Origin: Erysipelotrichaceae bacterium
GTDB taxonomy: Bacteria > Bacillota_I > Bacilli_A > RFN20 > CAG-449
Assembly (NCBI GenBank): GCA_015059045.1
Contig: SVBD01000001.1
Coordinates: 66,165 to 130,164, forward strand
Reading direction: 5' to 3'
DNA length: 64,000 nt
Shown: positions 1 to 63,694 of the stretch, one piece after another
Position numbering within the stretch: position 1 is the first letter of the stretch
Layout of the letters: each line of letters opens with the position of its first letter
Translations under genes and position numbers: made by a program
The notes under the pieces: model-generated
What the model was told of the DNA's origin: nothing
The model's database searches: none
What the model saw: the letters and a program-made list of their open reading frames with translations, nothing else

Positions 1-660
1 ATGATTGAACTTGATAACCCTGCTAAGTTCCCTGATATTACTAAAGTAAAGGAAATTCAAGAACCTTATGTTGAGGCTAAAATCATGACTCCGAAAGAGT
101 TTGTTGGTCCAATTATGCAACTATGTCAAGAAAGAAGAGGAATTTATTCTGATTTACAATATCTAGATGACACAAGAATGCAAATGGTATATCAATTACC
201 ATTAAGTGAAATCGTTTATAACTTCTTTGATAAATTAAAATCATATTCTAAAGGATACGCTTCATTTGATTATCAATTAATTGGCTATCAAGCAAGTAAA
301 TTAGTCAAAATGGACATTTTATTAAATGGTGAACCAATTGACGCATTAAGTAGTATCGTCTATAAAGAATTTGCTTACACAAGAGGTAATGCAATTGTAA
401 GAAAACTTAAAGAAGTTATTCCAAGACAACAATTCGAAGTTCCAGTTCAAGCGGCAATTGGAGGAAAAGTAATTGCACGTAGTGATATTAAAGCTGTAAG
501 AAAAGATGTTTTAGCAAAATGTTATGGTGGAGATATCTCTCGTAAAAAGAAATTGTTAGAAAAACAAAAAGAAGGAAAGAAGAGAATGAAATCTATTGGT
601 ACAGTTGATGTACCTCAAGATGCATTTATGGCAATCCTTTCAGTTGATGAAGATGAATAG
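1..660 (+). CDS. lepA: Elongation factor 4 (LepA), C-terminal part; 5-prime end cut by window edge
   Basis: LepA C-terminal domain residues ([33 protein letters not shown]). Conserved lepA-hemW-hrcA-grpE-dnaK-dnaJ synteny. Hairpin terminator follows. Confidence 0.9.
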
Positions 661-692
661 TCACACAAATTGTGTGACTTTTTATTTTTTTA
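660..692 (+). terminator. Rho-independent terminator of lepA
   Basis: Stem gtcacaca/tgtgtgac with loop aat, followed by tttttattttttt. Confidence 0.7.
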
Positions 693-805
693 TGCGATAT
701 ATAATATTTTTTGTCGAAATTTGTTAGTAGTTTTTTAGTAAATATTTAGCAGTCATTATTGAAGTAGTTAGACTTTTTATATAAAATATAAATGTATAAG
801 GAGAA

Positions 806-2200
806 ATGATTATGGAAAAAGATTTTGGTATTCGTTTTACTGACGAAAATTATGCAACTCGCGATGATGTAAAAAAAGCATTAAATATTTCAAGTATTGA
901 TTCAATTTGGGATAAAGTAACTCAATTTAGAGCCTATTATACACGTCAAACAAGTTTGAAAAATATTGAACGTGTTCCTTTTTCTTTTGTTTTACCACCT
1001 AAATTAACATCCAAAATCGTTTCATTAGAAAAGAAATTATCAAAATTATTAGTAAAAACTTCTTTAGCAAATATTCAAAATTCTTCAAACTATAATTCTT
1101 TTAAAAATCAATGCTATTTTACGATTTTAGAAGAAATCGCAAAAGGTTATGGAATTAATTATAATCAAGATACACTAAATGCAATTATTACTAATTCAAT
1201 TCCTACTTTACCAATTGAATATTTAATGTTAGAACGTTATTTAAACTGTTTAAGACATGTTGAAACTCGTTATAATGGTTCTTTTAATGAGTTTGTTATT
1301 TTATCGTTATACGCTAAATTAAGGGGCTTAGAATTAGATGTAAATAATTTAAATCAATATTATCGAACAACTGATTTATTAGATAGAGGAGATCACGTAT
1401 TCGTTGGTCAACACTATGAAGCAGCACCACTTGAAAAAATTCCTGATTTAATTAATCAATTATGTGATTTTTTAAATGATTCAACTCTTTTTAGCGTATG
1501 TAAGGCTTCAATTTGTTTCTTCTTTATTAATTACATTAAACCATTTGAATATTACAACGAAGAAATGTCTGTTTTATTATTTAAATATGTATTGTCAAAA
1601 GAAGATTTTGAATCTTTACCATCTTTAGTAATGTTTGAAGATATTCTTTCTAAATCATTTGAAAGCAAATTACAAGTTTTATCAAGGGAAAGTGAAATGA
1701 AACTTGATTTAACATATATTTCTAATTTATTAATTGATCATTTGTTAGAACATGTTATTGACTTTGAAAATGAATTAGCTTCACTTGATTTAAATATGGT
1801 AGTTCAAGAACAATACGCTAGTGAGTTACCTAAAACTAGACATGTTGTAAGTGAAACACCTATAGTTAATCACGATTCAAGTAATGTTGAAGTGGAAGGT
1901 GTTACATTTAAACAAAGTGTATCTTTACCAACTATGCCAGTAGGATTAGATGAAAAAGATGCCGATGTAGTTGCTAAAAATTTAATTGAAATTTATCCAT
2001 CGATGAAAAAAGGACAAGCTGAATTCTATTCTAGACATTGTACAGTTGGGAAATATTATACAATTGCTCAATATAAAAAAGAGCAAGATGTTGCTTATGA
2101 AACTGCAAGAACTAGTATGGATAATCTAGTAGCATTAGGTTTCTATAAAAAAGAACAAATTAAAAATAAATTTGTTTATACACCTGTAATTAAAAAATAA
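806..2200 (+). CDS. Fic-fold protein with degenerate active-site motif (Fic_N-like N-terminus with LPP motif, Fic core, C-terminal winged-helix-like tail)
   Basis: RBS aaggaga upstream. The core INYIKPFEYYNEEMSVLLFKYVL aligns to the Fic motif hhHPF(D/E)GNGRxxRll, with catalytic His, Asp and the GNGR residues replaced. FVLPPKL resembles Fic_N. C-terminal ETARTSMDNLVALGFY resembles the wHTH of Fic-family proteins. Sits as an insertion between lepA and hemW. Confidence 0.45.
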   Translation: MIMEKDFGIRFTDENYATRDDVKKALNISSIDSIWDKVTQFRAYYTRQTSLKNIERVPFSFVLPPKLTSKIVSLEKKLSKLLVKTSLANIQNSSNYNSFKNQCYFTILEEIAKGYGINYNQDTLNAIITNSIPTLPIEYLMLERYLNCLRHVETRYNGSFNEFVILSLYAKLRGLELDVNNLNQYYRTTDLLDRGDHVFVGQHYEAAPLEKIPDLINQLCDFLNDSTLFSVCKASICFFFINYIKPFEYYNEEMSVLLFKYVLSKEDFESLPSLVMFEDILSKSFESKLQVLSRESEMKLDLTYISNLLIDHLLEHVIDFENELASLDLNMVVQEQYASELPKTRHVVSETPIVNHDSSNVEVEGVTFKQSVSLPTMPVGLDEKDADVVAKNLIEIYPSMKKGQAEFYSRHCTVGKYYTIAQYKKEQDVAYETARTSMDNLVALGFYKKEQIKNKFVYTPVIKK

Positions 2201-3291
2201 TGGAAAGAGGTTTATATATTCATATTCCATTTTGCGATAATATCTGTGCCTATTGCGATTTTGCAAAGTTCTTTTATAATGAAAATTTAGTCGATCAATA
2301 TTTAGATGCATTGATAAATGAAATAGAGGATCGTAAATGTAATAATGTTTGTTCTATTTATATTGGAGGAGGAACTCCTTCTTCTTTAAATATTAATCAA
2401 TTAGAGAAATTATTAAGTTATTTAAATACCAATTTTTATAAAAAAGATATTCCTTTTACAATTGAAGCAAATTGTGAAAATTTAAGTGAAGAGAAAATTA
2501 TATTGTTTAATAAATATGGAGTTAATCGAGTTAGTTTAGGTGTTCAATCTTTTAATGATGAATTAATCAAAAGAATGAATCGTAAACATAATTTTGATAT
2601 GGTCGTTAACACTATATCTTTATTAAAAAAACATCATATTGATAATATTAGTTGTGATTTAATTTATGGACTTCCTAATGAAACTAAAGAAATTTTATTA
2701 GATGATATTAAAAAATTAATTAATTTAGATATTAAACATATTTCTACATACGCTTTACAAGTATCTAAACATACAGTTTTTTACAATCAAAAAATAATAG
2801 AAGCAAGCGAAGATAAATATCGTGAATTTTATGACTTAATTGTTGAAGAATTATTTAAAAATGGCTTTTCTCGATATGAAGTAAGTAATTTTTCTAAACC
2901 TGGATACGAATCATTTCATAATTTAATTTATTGGTTAAATAAGGAATATTATGGAGTAGGATTAGGTGCATCTTCTTATATTGATAGTGTAAGATTTGAT
3001 AATACTAAATCTTTAAATAAATATTTAACTGGAGAAAGAGTATTAAATAAAGAAGAATTAGATATAGAAGATAAAGAATTCTATGAACTAATGTTAGGGT
3101 TAAGATTATCAAAAGGAATTAATATCAATGAATTTAATAATAAATATAATAAGGATATATTATTAGATTATAAAGATAAATTAGATTCTTTATTTAATAG
3201 AGGATTAATTGAACTTAAAAATAATCACATTAGAATTACAGATGATAATGTTTTTATAATGGATTATGTCTTAAAAGAATTATTGTTTTAG
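2200..3291 (+). CDS. hemW: Radical SAM heme chaperone HemW (coproporphyrinogen III oxidase-like)
   Basis: CxxxCxxC radical-SAM motif (CDNICAYCDF). Length 363 aa. Position between lepA and hrcA as in Bacillus. Confidence 0.85.
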   Translation: MERGLYIHIPFCDNICAYCDFAKFFYNENLVDQYLDALINEIEDRKCNNVCSIYIGGGTPSSLNINQLEKLLSYLNTNFYKKDIPFTIEANCENLSEEKIILFNKYGVNRVSLGVQSFNDELIKRMNRKHNFDMVVNTISLLKKHHIDNISCDLIYGLPNETKEILLDDIKKLINLDIKHISTYALQVSKHTVFYNQKIIEASEDKYREFYDLIVEELFKNGFSRYEVSNFSKPGYESFHNLIYWLNKEYYGVGLGASSYIDSVRFDNTKSLNKYLTGERVLNKEELDIEDKEFYELMLGLRLSKGININEFNNKYNKDILLDYKDKLDSLFNRGLIELKNNHIRITDDNVFIMDYVLKELLF

Positions 3292-3310
3292 ATAAAATAT
3301 AAGAAAATTA

Positions 3311-3371
3311 ACACTCTTATCATAGGAGCGCTAAAAGGTAAAAAGACTCTGAATAAGAGTTTTTTTCTTTT
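3311..3371 (+). terminator. Putative terminator after hemW (long-loop hairpin plus T-run)
   Basis: actcttat...ataagagt inverted repeat followed by ttttttctttt. Confidence 0.45.
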
Positions 3372-3443
3372 AATATTAAAAATTATTAACTTTTTTAATA
3401 AGTAAAACTTATTATAAAGAAAATTTAAAAAAAAATTTAATTT

Positions 3444-3470
3444 TTAGCACTAAAATGTTGACAGTGCTAA
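3444..3470 (+). promoter_or_regulatory. CIRCE element 1 (HrcA operator) overlapping the hrcA promoter
   Basis: TTAGCACTA-N9-CAGTGCTAA matches the CIRCE consensus TTAGCACTC-N9-GAGTGCTAA. TTGACA lies inside the spacer. Confidence 0.85.
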
Positions 3471-3485
3471 TATAATGGTTATAAT
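3458..3485 (+). promoter_or_regulatory. Sigma-A type promoter of the hrcA-grpE-dnaK-dnaJ operon
   Basis: TTGACA (3458-3463), 16-nt spacer, TATAAT (3480-3485). Embedded between the two CIRCE repeats. Confidence 0.55.
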
Positions 3486-3489
3486 AGAA

Positions 3490-3516
3490 TTAGCAATACT
3501 TGAAAAAGAGTGCTAA
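3490..3516 (+). promoter_or_regulatory. CIRCE element 2 (second, slightly degenerate HrcA operator) just upstream of the hrcA RBS
   Basis: TTAGCAATA-N9-GAGTGCTAA. Followed by RBS aaaggaggt and the hrcA ATG at 3531. Confidence 0.75.
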
Positions 3517-10315: not shown

Positions 10316-10392
10316 GGCGGTGTAGCCCAGTTGGTTAGAGCGACCGGCTCATACCCGGTAGGTCGAGGGTTCAAGTCCCCCCGCCGCTACCA
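10316..10392 (+). tRNA. tRNA-Met (elongator, anticodon CAT)
   Basis: Cloverleaf with anticodon loop ctCATac, CCA end encoded. Near-identical to B. subtilis elongator tRNA-Met (GGCGGTGTAGC...CCGCCGCTACCA). Confidence 0.85.
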
Positions 10393-10412
10393 TTTATATA
10401 TTAGATTTTGTA

Positions 10413-10488
10413 GGACCCTTAGTTCAATGGTTAGAGCCCCCGTCTCATAAACGGGTAGTTGTAGGTTCAAGTCCTACAGGGTCCACCA
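10413..10488 (+). tRNA. tRNA-Ile2 (anticodon CAT, lysidine-type) or tRNA-Met-like
   Basis: Acceptor ggaccct/agggtcc. Anticodon stem cccgt/acggg with loop ctCATaa. T-arm GTAGGTTCAAGTCCTAC as in Bacillus tRNA-Ile(CAU). CCA encoded. Confidence 0.75.
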
Positions 10489-10494
10489 AATACT

Positions 10495-10585
10495 GGAGAA
10501 ATACCCAAGTGGCTGAAGGGGTCGGTCTTGAAAACCGATAGGGGGTGCAAGCTCCGCTAGGGTTCAAATCCCTATTTCTCCGCCA
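10495..10585 (+). tRNA. tRNA-Ser (anticodon TGA), class II with long variable arm
   Basis: GGAGAAATACCCAAGTGGCTGAAGGG...CTCCGCCA. Anticodon stem tcggt/accga with loop ctTGAaa. 91 nt. Confidence 0.85.
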
Positions 10586-13084: not shown

Positions 13085-13340
13085 TATAAAAAGCGCCCAT
13101 ATAAATAAGGACGCTTGGATAAACGCGGTACCACCTTAATTCGTATATGAAACATATACGCTCTTAATTGTTATTCTTAACGGGAATAAACGTCTAGTTA
13201 CCTAGAAAGCTCCAAAGTGGTATTGTAAGAGTTGTATATTTCTTTCACCAAATGAAATAATCTCTAATGTTTTCTTACAACATGTCTTTTTCATTGCTTA
13301 TATAAAGTATATAACTTTTGTTTTTTTATTTTCAATAAAA
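13085..13340 (-). promoter_or_regulatory. T-box riboswitch leader of thrS
   Basis: Minus strand reads AGAGA...GGTGA (stem I), then T-box AATTAAGGTGGTACCGCG, then terminator AAGCGTCC...GGGCGCTTTTT, then RBS GGAGG. Candidate specifier ACU. Confidence 0.85.
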
Positions 13341-33635: not shown

Positions 33636-33682
33636 CGTTTAAAAACATTGTTTTTAAATAAAAATGTTAATATAATTGAGTT

Positions 33683-33905
33683 AATTCTATGAAATAGAGG
33701 GTTTATATTGAAGTTTGTAGAGAGAGTTTGGTAGGTGAAAAAACTCAATAGAGATATAAACTTGACACTATGGAGAATGTGAAGTGAAATTAGTAGCGGA
33801 TCCGGTTGTTACGTTAAAACTATAAAGTGCATCAAGATTTTGATGAACTAAGGTGGTACCGTGCTTTATAGCACCCTTAGAGGTACTTTTTTTATTTCAA
33901 GGAGG
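33683..33905 (+). promoter_or_regulatory. T-box riboswitch leader of the hisS-aspS operon
   Basis: Extended -10 tgtTATAAT at 33668-33676. Stem I AGAGAG...GGTGA. T-box AACTAAGGTGGTACCGTG at 33846-33863. Terminator gcacccttagaggtac followed by tttttttat. RBS ggagga. Confidence 0.85.
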
Positions 33906-47892: not shown

Positions 47893-47903
47893 AGACTATA
47901 TTT

Positions 47904-47956
47904 ACTAATATTCTACTAATTATCTACTAAAAGTAATAAATTAGTAGTTTTTTAGT
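47904..47956 (+). repeat. Phased pentamer array A: ACTAA x3 at 47904/47915/47926, then inverted TTAGT x2 at 47941/47952, all at exact 11-bp spacing, dyad centre 47935.5
   Basis: Seen directly. Ends 3 nt before the plsY stop codon (47959-47961). Confidence 0.8.
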
Positions 47957-47958
47957 TA

Positions 47959-58346: not shown

Positions 58347-58347
58347 T

Positions 58348-58374
58348 ACTAAATATATACTAATTATCTACTAA
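58348..58374 (+). repeat. Phased pentamer array B: ACTAA at 58348/58359/58370, spacers ATATAT and TTATCT
   Basis: Seen directly. The last pentamer overlaps the stop codon of the minus-strand gene 58371-59516. 117 bp from dif. Confidence 0.8.
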
Positions 58375-59516
58375 CTAAGCAATTTTATATAATATTGTTC
58401 AGGAAATTCTTCATTAATAAATTGAGAGTATCCTTTTAAATAGTTTTCATCATAGTAAGTAAATATATTCTTTACATATTCTAATCTATTAATGAATTTT
58501 TCATAAGGCGCATCTTCACCAAGCCACAAATGCCATGCTTGTAATCTACTTGTTTCATTCCACGATATTCCAACAGTATCGAATTGATATTTATAAGCTA
58601 AATATGTTTGCTCTGAATTAGGATCTTCGTTTGGATCATTATATTCTTCTGACATTTCTCTAAAATGAATTCTATTGTTCGCGGCTTTTCTAACATTGAT
58701 TAAATCTATTGTTGAATTTAAATAATCAAACACTTCATACATTGCGTCTTGATTATTATTGTAGTAATCAAGATTAACAAATAAACCACATTGAGGAATA
58801 CCTCTATCATTGAGATTTAAATCATCATTATATGATAAATAAGCATCTCTTAAAGTCTTACAATATTGTTCTTTAGTATGATCATCTCCTCGATCATCAT
58901 TAAGGGTAAAATTAGCATATTTTTCATTATATAATTTTGATTCTTTTAAGGTCATTAATCTAGTCGCATAAGGCTCATTAATTAAGACATAATCATAATC
59001 ATTTTCTAAGCCTTCTTGAGAGAATAAATAATTATAAAATTCAAGGTCATTATATGATAAATAATCTACGTCAAATTTATCAATTTTATTTAATGTTTTT
59101 CCTGCACTACCAAACTCATTATTTGTTAAAACTTTATATGATTTAGATGTTGGATCTAAATTTTTTAAAGGAATAAATTGTTGGTTCCCCATTGCAATAG
59201 TACCTACATAAGCATAGTTACCATATTCCTTACATAAATCTAATCCCCTAACTGAATCGTAAACAATCATTTGATAATTGCTATTATCTTTAAATGCATT
59301 TTCAATAGATTCTAAACTATCAGTAAATGTAAATTTTTCATCTTCGTAATATGTTAAAAACGCTAAAGAAGCAACACCTTTTTGACATATTAAATTAAAT
59401 TTTAATGGCTTATAAATAATTAACCAATTTTCAAGATTACAAGAACAACTACTAGTAGTTAATAAGGTCAATGATAATAATGATATAGATAGTAATTTAC
59501 AAAATCTATTCATCAT
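58371..59516 (-). CDS. Lipoprotein of unknown function (signal peptide, lipobox LLTTSSC)
   Basis: N-terminal [26 protein letters not shown]. 381 aa. Rich in N/Y/D/E. No family recognised. Overlaps the deoB start by 11 nt. Confidence 0.6.
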
Positions 59517-62859: not shown

Positions 62860-62870
62860 CTATTAAATTA

Positions 62871-62897
62871 ACTAATTATCTACTAAATATATACTAA
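62871..62897 (+). repeat. Phased pentamer array C: ACTAA at 62871/62882/62893, spacers TTATCT and ATATAT
   Basis: Seen directly. Ends 2 nt before the spo0A stop codon (62900-62902). Shares the 16-mer ACTAATTATCTACTAA with arrays A and B. Confidence 0.8.
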
Positions 62898-62899
62898 AA

Positions 62900-63694
62900 T
62901 TATGAGAAAATTACTTTTGAATTAACTTCTTTATTTTTAATTTTAATATGATCACTAATCATGGCGATAAATTCACTATTTGTAGGCTTGCACTTATATG
63001 ATGAAATTGTATATCCAAATATCTCATTAATCTTTGTGATATTTCCTCTAACCCATGCCAATTCAATCGCGTGTCTGATAGCTCTTTCAACTCTAATTGA
63101 ACTAGTATTATATTTTTTAGCAATTTCAGGATATAAGACCTTAGTAATACTTCCTAAAAAATTTTCATCCTCATAAGTAGATATAATTGCACTTCTTAGA
63201 TACGTATACCCCTTAATATGAGCAGGAATTCCTAATTCATGCATCAATTTTGTTACTTGTTCTTCTAAATGATATTTAATATTTTTATTTAAATTTGTAT
63301 CCAGTTCTTTTTTAAATGGTTGAAATTTAATACTTGAAATTAATGAATCTATTGAATATGGTTTTAAAAGAATATTAGATACATTATATTTACTTAATCT
63401 TGATATTGTTACTTCATTTGCAAATGAAGTTGTTACTATAATATCCCCGATTCTTGGATAATTATTTGGATTATTAAATATCTCTTCCAAAACTCCTAAC
63501 CCATCAACTTCTGGTAATAGCAAATCTAAGATTAACACATCTATATTTCTAAAATTATGCATTTTTCCTAATGCCTCTCTGCCACTACTGGCAAAATCAA
63601 TTATATATAATGATTCCTCCTTTGCTATTCTTGCGATGTTTTGATTTAATACATCTTTAATTGATTCGATAATAAATACTGACTTTTTATTCAT
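62900..63694 (-). CDS. spo0A: Sporulation master regulator Spo0A (receiver domain plus Spo0A-specific DNA-binding domain)
   Basis: C-terminus [20 protein letters not shown]...[65 protein letters not shown] is near-identical in pattern to B. subtilis Spo0A. Receiver Asp (ILDLLLP), Thr and Lys are present. The usual DD pair is replaced by E-S. Confidence 0.9.

What the first reader, a model, noticed from the sequence alone, without database searches (positions are those of the whole stretch)
806..2200. Fic-fold protein with an inactivated catalytic motif inserted between lepA and hemW
Where Fic AMP-transferases carry HPF(D/E)GNGR, this 464-aa protein has KPFEYYNEEM. His becomes Lys, Asp becomes Tyr, and Gly-Asn-Gly-Arg becomes YNEE. 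The surrounding helices, a Fic_N-like LPP segment and a C-terminal winged-helix-like tail are retained. lepA and hemW are normally adjacent, so this gene is a lineage-specific insertion. It is a candidate pseudo-enzyme, for example a regulatory or DNA-binding Fic relative.
Basis: partly seen in the sequence, partly recalled or inferred. Interest (0 to 1): 0.5.

Follow-up and report, generated by a model that had tools for sequence, protein, structure and literature searches.

The report
Dead Fic enzyme kept as regulator
A gene between lepA and hemW encodes a Fic-type enzyme fold that has lost its catalytic residues but keeps a highly conserved DNA-binding domain, and in hundreds of uncultured gut Bacilli species it sits behind a conserved TTAGTA repeat array, so it most likely works as a transcription regulator rather than an enzyme.

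Summary

This is not recent decay. The family comprises about 300 clusters at 50% identity and occurs in 425 species-representative genomes, all uncultured Bacilli MAGs. It is inherited vertically, is absent from the plasmid, phage and viral collections searched, and is locked in the order lepA-X-(small membrane protein)-hemW-hrcA-grpE-dnaK.

The C-terminal winged helix is the most conserved part of the protein. I also found a new feature: three TTAGTA boxes at 11-bp spacing (window 724-751) lie 6-7 nt upstream of the -35 of the X promoter. The array is present in 73 of 87 loci, and it stays with X when lepA is displaced.

Best reading, with the binding step inferred: X is a Fic-wHTH protein reduced to a DNA-binding, probably autoregulatory, factor that heads the X-hemW operon. 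This is a new variant of a known kind.

The parts
659..689 (+). Intrinsic terminator of lepA: a 9-bp stem, a 3-nt loop and a T-run. It separates lepA from the X transcription unit in this genome.
   Evidence: terminator scan: 3 found against 0.4 expected; sequence
712..718 (+). TGTCGAA, identical to the Spo0A '0A box' consensus as I recall it, 5 nt upstream of box 1. It is semi-conserved (TGTC[GA]AA) across loci. It is a possible second regulatory input and is not part of the main claim.
   Evidence: logo positions -12..-6; Spo0A is encoded in the window
724..751 (+). Array of three direct TTAGTA boxes at 11-bp spacing (TTAGTAgttttTTAGTAaatatTTAGCA). This is the candidate operator for the X winged helix.
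   Evidence: The window has 9 matches against 0.35 expected. The array scores >=15/18 within 200 bp upstream of X in 73 of 87 loci, against about 10 other sites in roughly 1 Mb of flanks. It stays with X, not lepA, in 9 loci where the two are separated. The logo shows A-G-T-A nearly invariant.
759..787 (+). Sigma-70-type promoter of X: -35 TTGAAG, a 17-nt spacer, and -10 TAAAAT. The -35 hexamer starts 7 nt after box 3.
   Evidence: The same geometry (-35 starting 6-7 nt after box 3, 17-nt spacer) holds in 43 of 57 distinct upstream regions.
806..2200 (+). X coding sequence: 464 aa from ATG 806, and probably 462 aa from ATG 812. It is a catalytically dead Fic-wHTH protein.
818..991 (+). N-terminal domain (aa 5-62): three helices followed by a beta-hairpin. 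It is the second most conserved region (0.58). Its function is unknown.
998..1810 (+). Helical N-terminal extension plus the Fic core (aa 65-335). It includes a long helix (aa 65-91) with near-invariant E75, a flap-like segment (aa ~187-210), and the DxTY helix. Its net charge is about -13.
1538..1573 (+). Degenerate Fic motif K245-P-F-E-Y-Y-N-E-E-M-S-V256, aligned to H-P-F-x-D-G-N-G-R-x-x-R.
   Evidence: alignments; 0 of 195 canonical; 0 of 137 canonical
1811..1927 (+). Poorly conserved, low-confidence linker (aa 336-374) that varies in length across the family.
   Evidence: (pLDDT<50 for residues 336-370; conservation 0.27)
1928..2197 (+). C-terminal winged helix-turn-helix (aa 375-464). It is the most conserved domain, with recognition helix AYETARTSMDNL, and it carries a net charge of +4.
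   Evidence: (conservation 0.74; helix 0.88; YETAR[TS]S in 121 of 137)
2200..3291 (+). hemW, a radical-SAM heme chaperone family gene. Its ATG overlaps the X stop codon (TAATG), which suggests an X-hemW operon with translational coupling.
   Evidence: hemW lies downstream of X in every locus with enough sequence to test.
47903..47957 (.). Second TTAGTA array. Three perfect boxes lie on the - strand and are followed by three weaker boxes on the + strand, between the 3' ends of the yneF-family gene and plsY.
58347..58374 (-). Third TTAGTA array, a perfect 18/18 match. It overlaps the stop codon of the lipoprotein-like gene 58371..59516 and sits directly before a terminator-like hairpin.
62870..62908 (-). 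Fourth TTAGTA array. It lies immediately after the spo0A stop codon, before a hairpin, and 87 bp upstream of the dinB ATG.

Best explanation
X descends from the SoFic/CbFic2/CccR type of Fic protein, which has an N-terminal helical region, a Fic core and a C-terminal winged helix. X has lost AMP-transferase chemistry and has been kept as a DNA-binding regulator. Every phosphate-, Mg2+- and base-providing residue of HxFx(D/E)GNGRxxR is replaced, and so is the class II inhibitory Glu motif (shown here). The protein therefore almost certainly neither binds ATP productively nor modifies a target (inferred). The part under the strongest selection is the basic C-terminal wHTH (shown here). The gene heads an X-(Y)-hemW operon that was inserted, with its own promoter, into the ancestral lepA-hemN operon of a large clade of uncultured Bacilli (shown here). 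Three phased TTAGTA boxes lie at roughly -43 to -70 of that promoter (shown here). I infer that X oligomers, using the acidic Fic scaffold for self-association as SoFic and CccR do, bind these boxes through the wHTH. In that model X controls its own transcription and that of hemW, and it also occupies a few other TTAGTA arrays in the genome. The position upstream of the -35 hexamer is more typical of an activator or a phased architectural site than of a simple occluding repressor. The sign of regulation is not determined.
Against: No experiment or computation here links X physically to the boxes. The association is positional co-conservation, and another conserved regulator could bind them. 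The recognition helix is invariant even where the box arrangement differs (L071, L075, L083), so no protein-DNA covariation supports the pairing. CccR recognises a palindrome, whereas these are direct repeats. Three other arrays in the window lie between a stop codon and a terminator hairpin, not upstream of recognisable promoters. A simple promoter-operator model does not explain this. I had no model coordinates, so I could not inspect the pocket geometry or surface charge.
Confidence: 0.55

Rival explanations
1. X is a non-catalytic protein-binding adaptor. In this reading the retained Fic scaffold and flap still dock a target protein, for example a translational GTPase such as EF-Tu or LepA, or DnaK, without modifying it. 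The wHTH would be secondary. This reading can coexist with DNA binding, for instance if a partner modulates DNA binding.
For: The flap-like segment and the scaffold landmarks are conserved: YR187, hYeAAP208 and D301-x-T-Y. SoFic, one of the closest structural relatives, targets switch I of EF-Tu (bioRxiv 10.64898/2026.07.09.737422). FICD binds the Hsp70 BiP (PDB hits 6zmd and 7b7z). X sits next to lepA and upstream of hrcA-grpE-dnaK in nearly all genomes.
Against: The lepA adjacency is dispensable: 9 loci have 0.6-5.8 kb inserted and 4 have no lepA in the available flank. The link to hemW and the box array is kept in all of them. The Fic core is much less conserved than the wHTH, and the former active-site loop drifts. 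The flap region has low model confidence (pLDDT 58-78). No interaction test was possible.
Confidence: 0.2
2. The TTAGTA array is bound by a different factor, such as a response regulator, a nucleoid protein or Spo0A-associated machinery. X would then be merely a regulated gene, and its wHTH would bind other DNA, RNA or nothing.
For: Arrays occur at places unrelated to X in the window. A TGTC[GA]AA element resembling a Spo0A box sits just upstream of box 1 in many loci, and the window encodes Spo0A. Hexamer-N5-hexamer direct repeats are also typical sites of OmpR/PhoB-type regulators (my own knowledge).
Against: Across roughly 1 Mb of homologous flanks, the only position where the array is consistently conserved is the X promoter. 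The near-invariance of the box core across lineages whose X proteins are about 33% identical is matched by near-invariance of the X recognition helix. Three characterised homologues of this architecture bind DNA, and two of them bind their own promoters (PMC9755527; bioRxiv 10.64898/2026.07.09.737422).
Confidence: 0.2
3. X is still an enzyme with altered chemistry, and it uses the conserved K245, E252, E253 and K260 as a new active site. Possible activities include a hydrolase or de-modifying enzyme, or use of a cationic substrate.
For: Within the close subfamily the variant motif is strongly conserved: P 195/195, F 190/195, E252 175/195, E253 185/195 and K260 195/195. Other Fido proteins (Doc, AnkX) have changed chemistry with altered motifs (my own knowledge).
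Against: In more distant members that keep the same locus and the same wHTH, the EE pair is not kept. Examples are KPFEAYNELV, KPFDLYNPMV, KPFASHNQTS and EPFDFHNRMM. The catalytic His position holds K, R, Q, V or E. Known alternative-chemistry Fido enzymes keep the His and the anion-binding loop (my own knowledge).
Confidence: 0.04
4. X is a decaying remnant of a mobile Fic/Doc toxin-antitoxin or effector gene.
For: Many bacterial Fic genes are mobile toxins. In most relatives a small ORF follows X.
Against: The ORF is full-length and intact in hundreds of species, with conserved domains. Its divergence matches that of its neighbours. No plasmid, phage or viral copies were found. The small ORF is a TM protein with an acidic tail and has no inhibitory [ST]xxxE[GN] helix.
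Confidence: 0.01

Closest known systems
SoFic (Shewanella oneidensis SO_4266; PDB 3eqx, 3zcn, 3zec)
   Different: SoFic has an intact HPFxxGNGR motif and the inhibitory Glu E73, and it AMPylates and deAMPylates EF-Tu. X has neither motif. X also has an extra N-terminal domain of about 60 aa and a disordered linker of about 40 aa, and it is only 12% identical.
CccR (Yersinia pseudotuberculosis YPK_0951)
   Same: CccR is a Fic-wHTH protein that acts as a transcription factor on its own promoter. Its regulatory activity does not depend on the catalytic His192 (PMC9755527). It therefore shows that the DNA-binding role can stand alone.
   Different: CccR is an active FtsZ-AMPylating toxin secreted by a T6SS, and it binds a palindrome as a dimer. 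X is chromosomal and housekeeping-like, has no catalytic motif, and its candidate sites are three direct repeats at 11-bp spacing.
CbFic2 (Coxiella burnetii CBU_0822; PDB 8cil)
   Same: CbFic2 is the best sequence-profile hit (E=3e-9) and the top Foldseek hit. It has the DUF4172 + Fic + wHTH layout, and its wHTH binds DNA (PMC10628234).
   Different: CbFic2 is an active bifunctional (de)AMPylase with motifs HPFDDGNGRIGR and TSAIEG, a basic protein (pI 9.75) and a host-directed effector candidate. The Fic core of X is acidic (net about -13) and lacks the motifs.
MraZ-type operon-leading autoregulators (analogy only, from my own knowledge)
   Same: In both cases a conserved DNA-binding protein is encoded as the first gene of a conserved operon, with a short array of phased direct repeats just upstream of its own promoter.
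   Different: The fold is unrelated (MraZ is a SpoVT/AbrB-like protein) and so is the repeat sequence. This comparison concerns how the system may work, not family membership.

Membership tests
Fic/Doc (Fido) fold superfamily | The all-helical Fic core fold | tested here: met
Fic/Doc (Fido) fold superfamily | A Pfam PF02661 score above the gathering threshold | tested here: not met
   The window protein scores 17.1 bits against a 24-bit cut-off (E=0.011). Of 29 family members, 18 hit at E<0.1, with a best E of 1.3e-6. Most members have no precomputed Pfam domain.
Catalytically competent Fic enzymes (AMP-, UMP- or phosphocholine-transferases and the Doc kinase) | The active-site motif HxFx(D/E)(G/A)N(G/K)R with its catalytic His | tested here: not met
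   The aligned segment reads KPFEYYNEE. The motif is absent from all 195 close members and from 137 further representatives. The nearest to canonical is P0239, which reads HPFEEGNLES.
Catalytically competent Fic enzymes (AMP-, UMP- or phosphocholine-transferases and the Doc kinase) | Nucleotide binding and transfer activity | not testable with these tools
   This needs ATP-binding and (auto)modification assays. Absence of activity is predicted from the loss of both Arg residues, the GNG anion hole, the Mg-binding acid and the His.
Class II Fic proteins | An N-terminal inhibitory helix with [ST]xxxE[GN] | tested here: not met
   The pattern occurs at any one alignment position in at most 10 of 195 members.
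SoFic/CbFic2/CccR-type Fic-wHTH architecture | An N-terminal helical region, a Fic core and a C-terminal winged helix in one chain | tested here: met
SoFic/CbFic2/CccR-type Fic-wHTH architecture | The Pfam Fic_N or DUF4172 N-terminal domain | tested here: not met
No hit appears at E<=1.
SoFic/CbFic2/CccR-type Fic-wHTH architecture | The wHTH binds DNA at the protein's own promoter | tested here: inconclusive
   A conserved TTAGTA x3 array lies at a fixed position in the X promoter in 73 of 87 loci. No binding test was possible.
Mobile Fic/Doc toxin-antitoxin modules | An adjacent small antitoxin carrying the inhibitory helix, with a mobile or patchy distribution | tested here: not met
   The neighbouring small ORF in relatives is a TM protein with an acidic tail, and it is absent from the window. 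Inheritance is vertical. No plasmid, phage or viral copies were found.

The most novel reading that the evidence does not exclude
X may be a clade-wide regulator derived from a Fic enzyme, with a regulon marked by the TTAGTA arrays. Some of those arrays sit between stop codons and terminators or bracket the X-hemW operon in inverted orientation, so X might act as a roadblock, a looping factor or a termination factor, and not only as a promoter regulator. Its dead Fic domain might still dock a translational GTPase or an Hsp70, as SoFic docks EF-Tu and FICD docks BiP. That would couple translation or proteostasis status to transcription of hemW and neighbouring stress genes.
Probability: 0.12. 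Interest if true: 0.8.

Novelty: new variant of a known kind. Interest (0 to 1): 0.55.

Why it matters
Fic proteins are studied almost entirely as enzymes. Recent work on CccR, CbFic2 and SoFic showed that the wHTH subclass also binds DNA, but the enzymatic role complicates study of that second role. The family described here looks like a natural separation-of-function case. Catalysis is gone, while the DNA-binding module and a recognisable candidate operator are conserved across hundreds of species. It would give a clean system for asking what the Fic scaffold contributes to DNA binding. It also assigns a testable function to a conserved 'hypothetical protein' in a large group of uncultured gut and rumen Bacilli. 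Finally, it points to lineage-specific control of hemW, whose link to the heat-shock gene cluster is still unexplained (PMC13495026).

Tried and rejected
It returned unrelated contigs, many with higher GC and 11-bp tandem arrays, and none carried X. It says nothing about specificity.
2. Control of X by CIRCE/HrcA is rejected. The three CIRCE-like elements all lie at 3308-3516, upstream of hrcA, and none lies upstream of X.
3. The boxes are not part of a mobile repeat. The four window sites share only the boxes and have no flanking homology.
4. An RNA-level role for the boxes is unlikely. At X they lie upstream of the predicted promoter, and in four relatives they occur in inverted orientation after hemW. 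No Rfam family matches the region.
5. I looked for protein-DNA covariation in the lineage with rearranged boxes (L071, L075, L083). The recognition helix is unchanged there, so the test was uninformative.
6. No homologue of the small protein Y is encoded in the window. The only weak hit is a TM-region match to the YneF-family gene.
8. NCBIfam has no model for the family.

Full report
**1. What is in the sequence**

The + strand ORF 806..2200 encodes 464 aa and contains ...INYIKPFEYYNEEMSVLLFKYVL... at residues 241-263.

The Shine-Dalgarno AAGGAGA (798-804) is too close to ATG 806 and well placed for ATG 812. Homologues start MEKDFG and are 459-463 aa long, so the true product is probably 462 aa.

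Upstream lies the 3' end of lepA (Pfam LepA_C, E=1e-50), followed by a clean intrinsic terminator at 659-689.

Downstream the X stop codon overlaps the ATG of hemW (TAATG). That gene passes the HemW equivalog model (TIGR00539, 296 bits against a 205-bit cut-off). Three CIRCE-like elements (3308-3516) and hrcA-grpE-dnaK follow.

**2. Is it a Fic fold?**

Taken alone, the window protein is sub-threshold. It scores E=0.011 and 17 bits against PF02661, whose gathering score is 24. It has no NCBIfam hit and only an E=2.5 phmmer hit in the PDB.

It belongs, however, to a large full-length family: more than 711 word-index hits, all labelled 'hypothetical'. A 29-member profile (A1) matches solved Fic proteins significantly. 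It hits CbFic2 (8cil) at E=3.1e-9 and Dde_2494 (4rgl) at E=9.7e-9, and it aligns 'ikPFdvyneeia' to 'lhPFddGNgrig'.

The fold claim and the C-terminal winged-helix claim are therefore both supported.

**3. The catalytic machinery is gone, and this is old**

Mapped on HxFx(D/E)GNGRxxR, the window protein reads K-P-F-E-Y-Y-N-E-E-M-S-V.

Across 195 unique close relatives no canonical motif exists anywhere in the proteins. The variant is itself conserved: K 166/195, P 195/195, F 190/195, [ED], x, [FY], N/S 191/195, E 175/195, E 185/195, and an invariant K260.

An exhaustive HMMER search of 1.84 billion representatives found 301 clusters with E<=1e-30. Among the 137 newly returned representatives none has a canonical motif. 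The loop is much freer there, with examples KPFEAYNELV, KPFDLYNPMV, EPFDFHNRMM and one HPFEEGNLES. The wHTH signature YETAR[TS]S persists in 121 of 137.

The class II inhibitory motif [ST]xxxE[GN] is not conserved at any position.

Selection therefore acts mainly on the C-terminal domain. Mean column conservation is 0.74 for the wHTH, 0.88 for the recognition helix and 0.45 for the Fic core. The wHTH is basic (median +4), whereas the Fic core is acidic (median -12). This pattern argues against a new active site and for a scaffold role of the Fic domain.

**4. Distribution and context**

A scan of one genome per GTDB species found 425 genomes encoding a relative. All are uncultured Bacilli, Erysipelotrichales or 'Mollicutes' MAGs, with labels such as CAG:449, CAG:826, CAG:288, Ca. 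Onthovivens and UBA bins. From memory these belong to GTDB order RFN20 and its neighbours, but I could not verify that here.

In the 86 fetched loci, hemW lies downstream of X wherever enough sequence exists. lepA ends within 300 bp upstream in 73 loci. Nine loci have 0.6-5.8 kb inserted between lepA and X, and four have no lepA in the available flank.

The order lepA-X-small ORF-hemW-hrcA-grpE-dnaK-dnaJ holds at 31-37% X identity. It also holds for the most divergent representatives I could look up.

X identity to the window correlates with that of LepA (rho=0.85) and HemW (rho=0.72). No relative was found in viral contigs, plasmids or phage genomes.

In B. subtilis lepA-hemN is a bicistronic operon, and the lepA-hemN-hrcA-grpE-dnaK block is conserved across Bacillales (bioRxiv 10.1101/212886; Homuth 1996 as cited in PMC13495026). 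X is therefore a clade-level, ancient, vertically inherited insertion into that operon. It is neither a recent nor a mobile one.

**5.

I lined up the lepA-X intergenic regions. Nearly all carry two to five direct TTAGTA boxes at 11-bp spacing. In the window the array is at 724-751: TTAGTAgttttTTAGTAaatatTTAGCA.

- *Statistics.* The triple-box pattern with up to 3 mismatches occurs 9 times in the window, against 0.35 expected.
- *Specificity.* At >=15/18 matches, 73 of 87 loci have it on the + strand within 200 bp upstream of X. Only about 10 other sites exist in roughly 1 Mb of flanking DNA.
- *Weaker cases.* The 'negative' loci mostly keep two strong boxes. Divergent, higher-GC lineages keep one or two.
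- *Geometry.* The distance from box 3 to the ATG is nearly fixed, with a median of 51 nt and 57 of 73 in the range 50-59. In 43 of 57 distinct regions the best -35 hexamer starts 6-7 nt after box 3, usually with a 17-nt spacer. This places the array at about -43 to -70.
- *Natural experiment.* In the nine loci where other genes separate lepA from X, the array is next to X (15-18/18 in 8 of the 9; two strong boxes, 13/18, in L072). It is not found after lepA, where scores are at background (10-13/18).
- *Logo.* A-G-T-A is essentially invariant in boxes 1 and 2, and the spacers contain almost only A or T.

**6. Interpretation of the element**

Three characterised proteins share this architecture and bind DNA through the C-terminal wHTH.

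- CccR represses its own promoter, and it does so independently of its catalytic His (PMC9755527).
- CbFic2 binds DNA (PMC10628234).

The simplest reading is that X is the end point of this trend: a Fic-wHTH protein that kept only the transcription-factor role. In this reading the TTAGTA array is its operator, and it controls the X-(Y)-hemW unit. The near-invariance of the box core matches the near-invariance of the recognition helix across the same lineages.

This step is an inference. Nothing here shows binding, and another regulator cannot be excluded.

**7. What does not fit neatly**

The window has three more arrays.

- One lies at 47903-47957, with boxes in both orientations, between the convergent 3' ends of a yneF-family gene and plsY.
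- One lies at 58347-58374 and overlaps the stop codon of a lipoprotein-like gene.
- One lies at 62870-62908, immediately after the spo0A stop codon and 87 bp before dinB.

In each case the boxes precede a terminator-like hairpin, not a recognisable promoter. These sites share only the boxes and no flanking homology.

In four relatives an inverted array follows hemW within about 30 bp, which is 4 of 76 loci against about 0.003 expected per region. In those genomes the X-Y-hemW unit is bracketed by arrays.

These observations suggest that X, or whatever binds the boxes, has a small regulon, and perhaps a looping or roadblock role. I leave this unexplained.

**8. Comparison with known families and novelty**

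X works most like CccR in its regulator role. Structurally it belongs with the SoFic/CbFic2/CccR architecture. It fails the defining tests for a catalytically competent Fic enzyme: no motif, no inhibitory helix, and below the Pfam threshold.

No Pfam or NCBIfam family describes it, and all database names I saw are 'hypothetical protein'. One full-text search combining 'Fic domain' with 'pseudoenzyme' found no description of a Fic pseudo-enzyme family.

I rate it a new variant of a known kind. Its interest is moderate. It would be a natural separation-of-function system for the DNA-binding role of Fic-wHTH proteins, and it offers a concrete, testable function and operator for a conserved gene of a poorly known gut lineage.

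Noticed in passing
L001 7409-7666; L003 7385-7672; L005 7375-7611, and about 70 other loci. Absent from the window at 2198-2202.: Most relatives encode a conserved small protein 'Y' of 65-104 aa between X and hemW. It has an N-terminal TM helix, then LRKxIPGLK, then an acidic tail with the motif EE.L.RILVP..DE. It has been lost in the window and its nearest relatives (L007, L008, L009, L015, L027) and also in L074 and L085, where the X stop abuts or overlaps the hemW start. It has no Pfam hit on record.
   Followed up: partly
window 47903-47957, 58347-58374 and 62870-62908: Three further TTAGTA x3 arrays lie outside the X promoter. Each sits just past a stop codon (plsY/yneF, a lipoprotein-like gene, and spo0A) and just before a terminator-like hairpin. 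They share only the boxes. It is unknown whether they are conserved in relatives.
   Followed up: partly
L042 8763-8801; L055 8728-8766; L060 8793-8831; L081 8742-8769: In four relatives an inverted TTAGTA array (read as TACTAA on the + strand) lies within about 30 bp after the hemW stop. In these genomes the X-Y-hemW unit is therefore bracketed by oppositely oriented arrays.
   Followed up: partly
window 712-718; similar positions in L018, L025, L030, L032, L034, L050 and others: TGTCGAA, or TGTC[GA]AA, sits 5 nt upstream of box 1. It matches the Spo0A '0A box' consensus as I recall it. The window encodes a Spo0A that passes its equivalog cut-off (62900..63694, - strand). L050 has GTCGAAAcagGTCAAAA, which resembles a CtsR-type heptad repeat.
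   Followed up: no
window 3308-3334, 3444-3470 and 3490-3516: Three CIRCE-like inverted repeats (2 mismatches each) lie between hemW and hrcA. The second overlaps a perfect TTGACA-16-TATAAT promoter (3458-3485). This is the expected HrcA autoregulation, with an unusually high operator count.
   Followed up: partly
protein P0239, locus L207 5001-6395: One divergent family member reads HPFEEGNLES at the motif position. It keeps the His, an acidic residue, and Gly-Asn, but lacks Gly-Arg. It looks like an intermediate between a canonical Fic motif and the family's degenerate form. It occupies the same lepA-X-Y-hemW locus but has only one strong TTAGTA box.
   Followed up: partly
window 806 vs 812: The annotated first ATG (806) is probably not the start. 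The Shine-Dalgarno spacing and the N-termini of homologues favour ATG 812.
   Followed up: yes
L001, L003, L207 and L209, upstream flanks: In several distant relatives the upstream order fmt - DEAD_2/Helicase_C_2 (DinG-like) helicase - lepA is also conserved. The syntenic block therefore extends beyond lepA.
   Followed up: no
window 13104-13303 (-), 33680-33881 (+) and 10316-10582 (+): Two T-box leaders and a cluster of three tRNA genes were found by Rfam at gathering threshold. They are unrelated to the finding.
   Followed up: no
L092, L095, L102, L127, L188 and other metagenome contigs: The exact TTAGTA-N5 pattern also occurs as long 11-bp tandem arrays in unrelated contigs, many with higher GC. 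The pattern by itself is therefore not diagnostic of X-bearing genomes.
   Followed up: no
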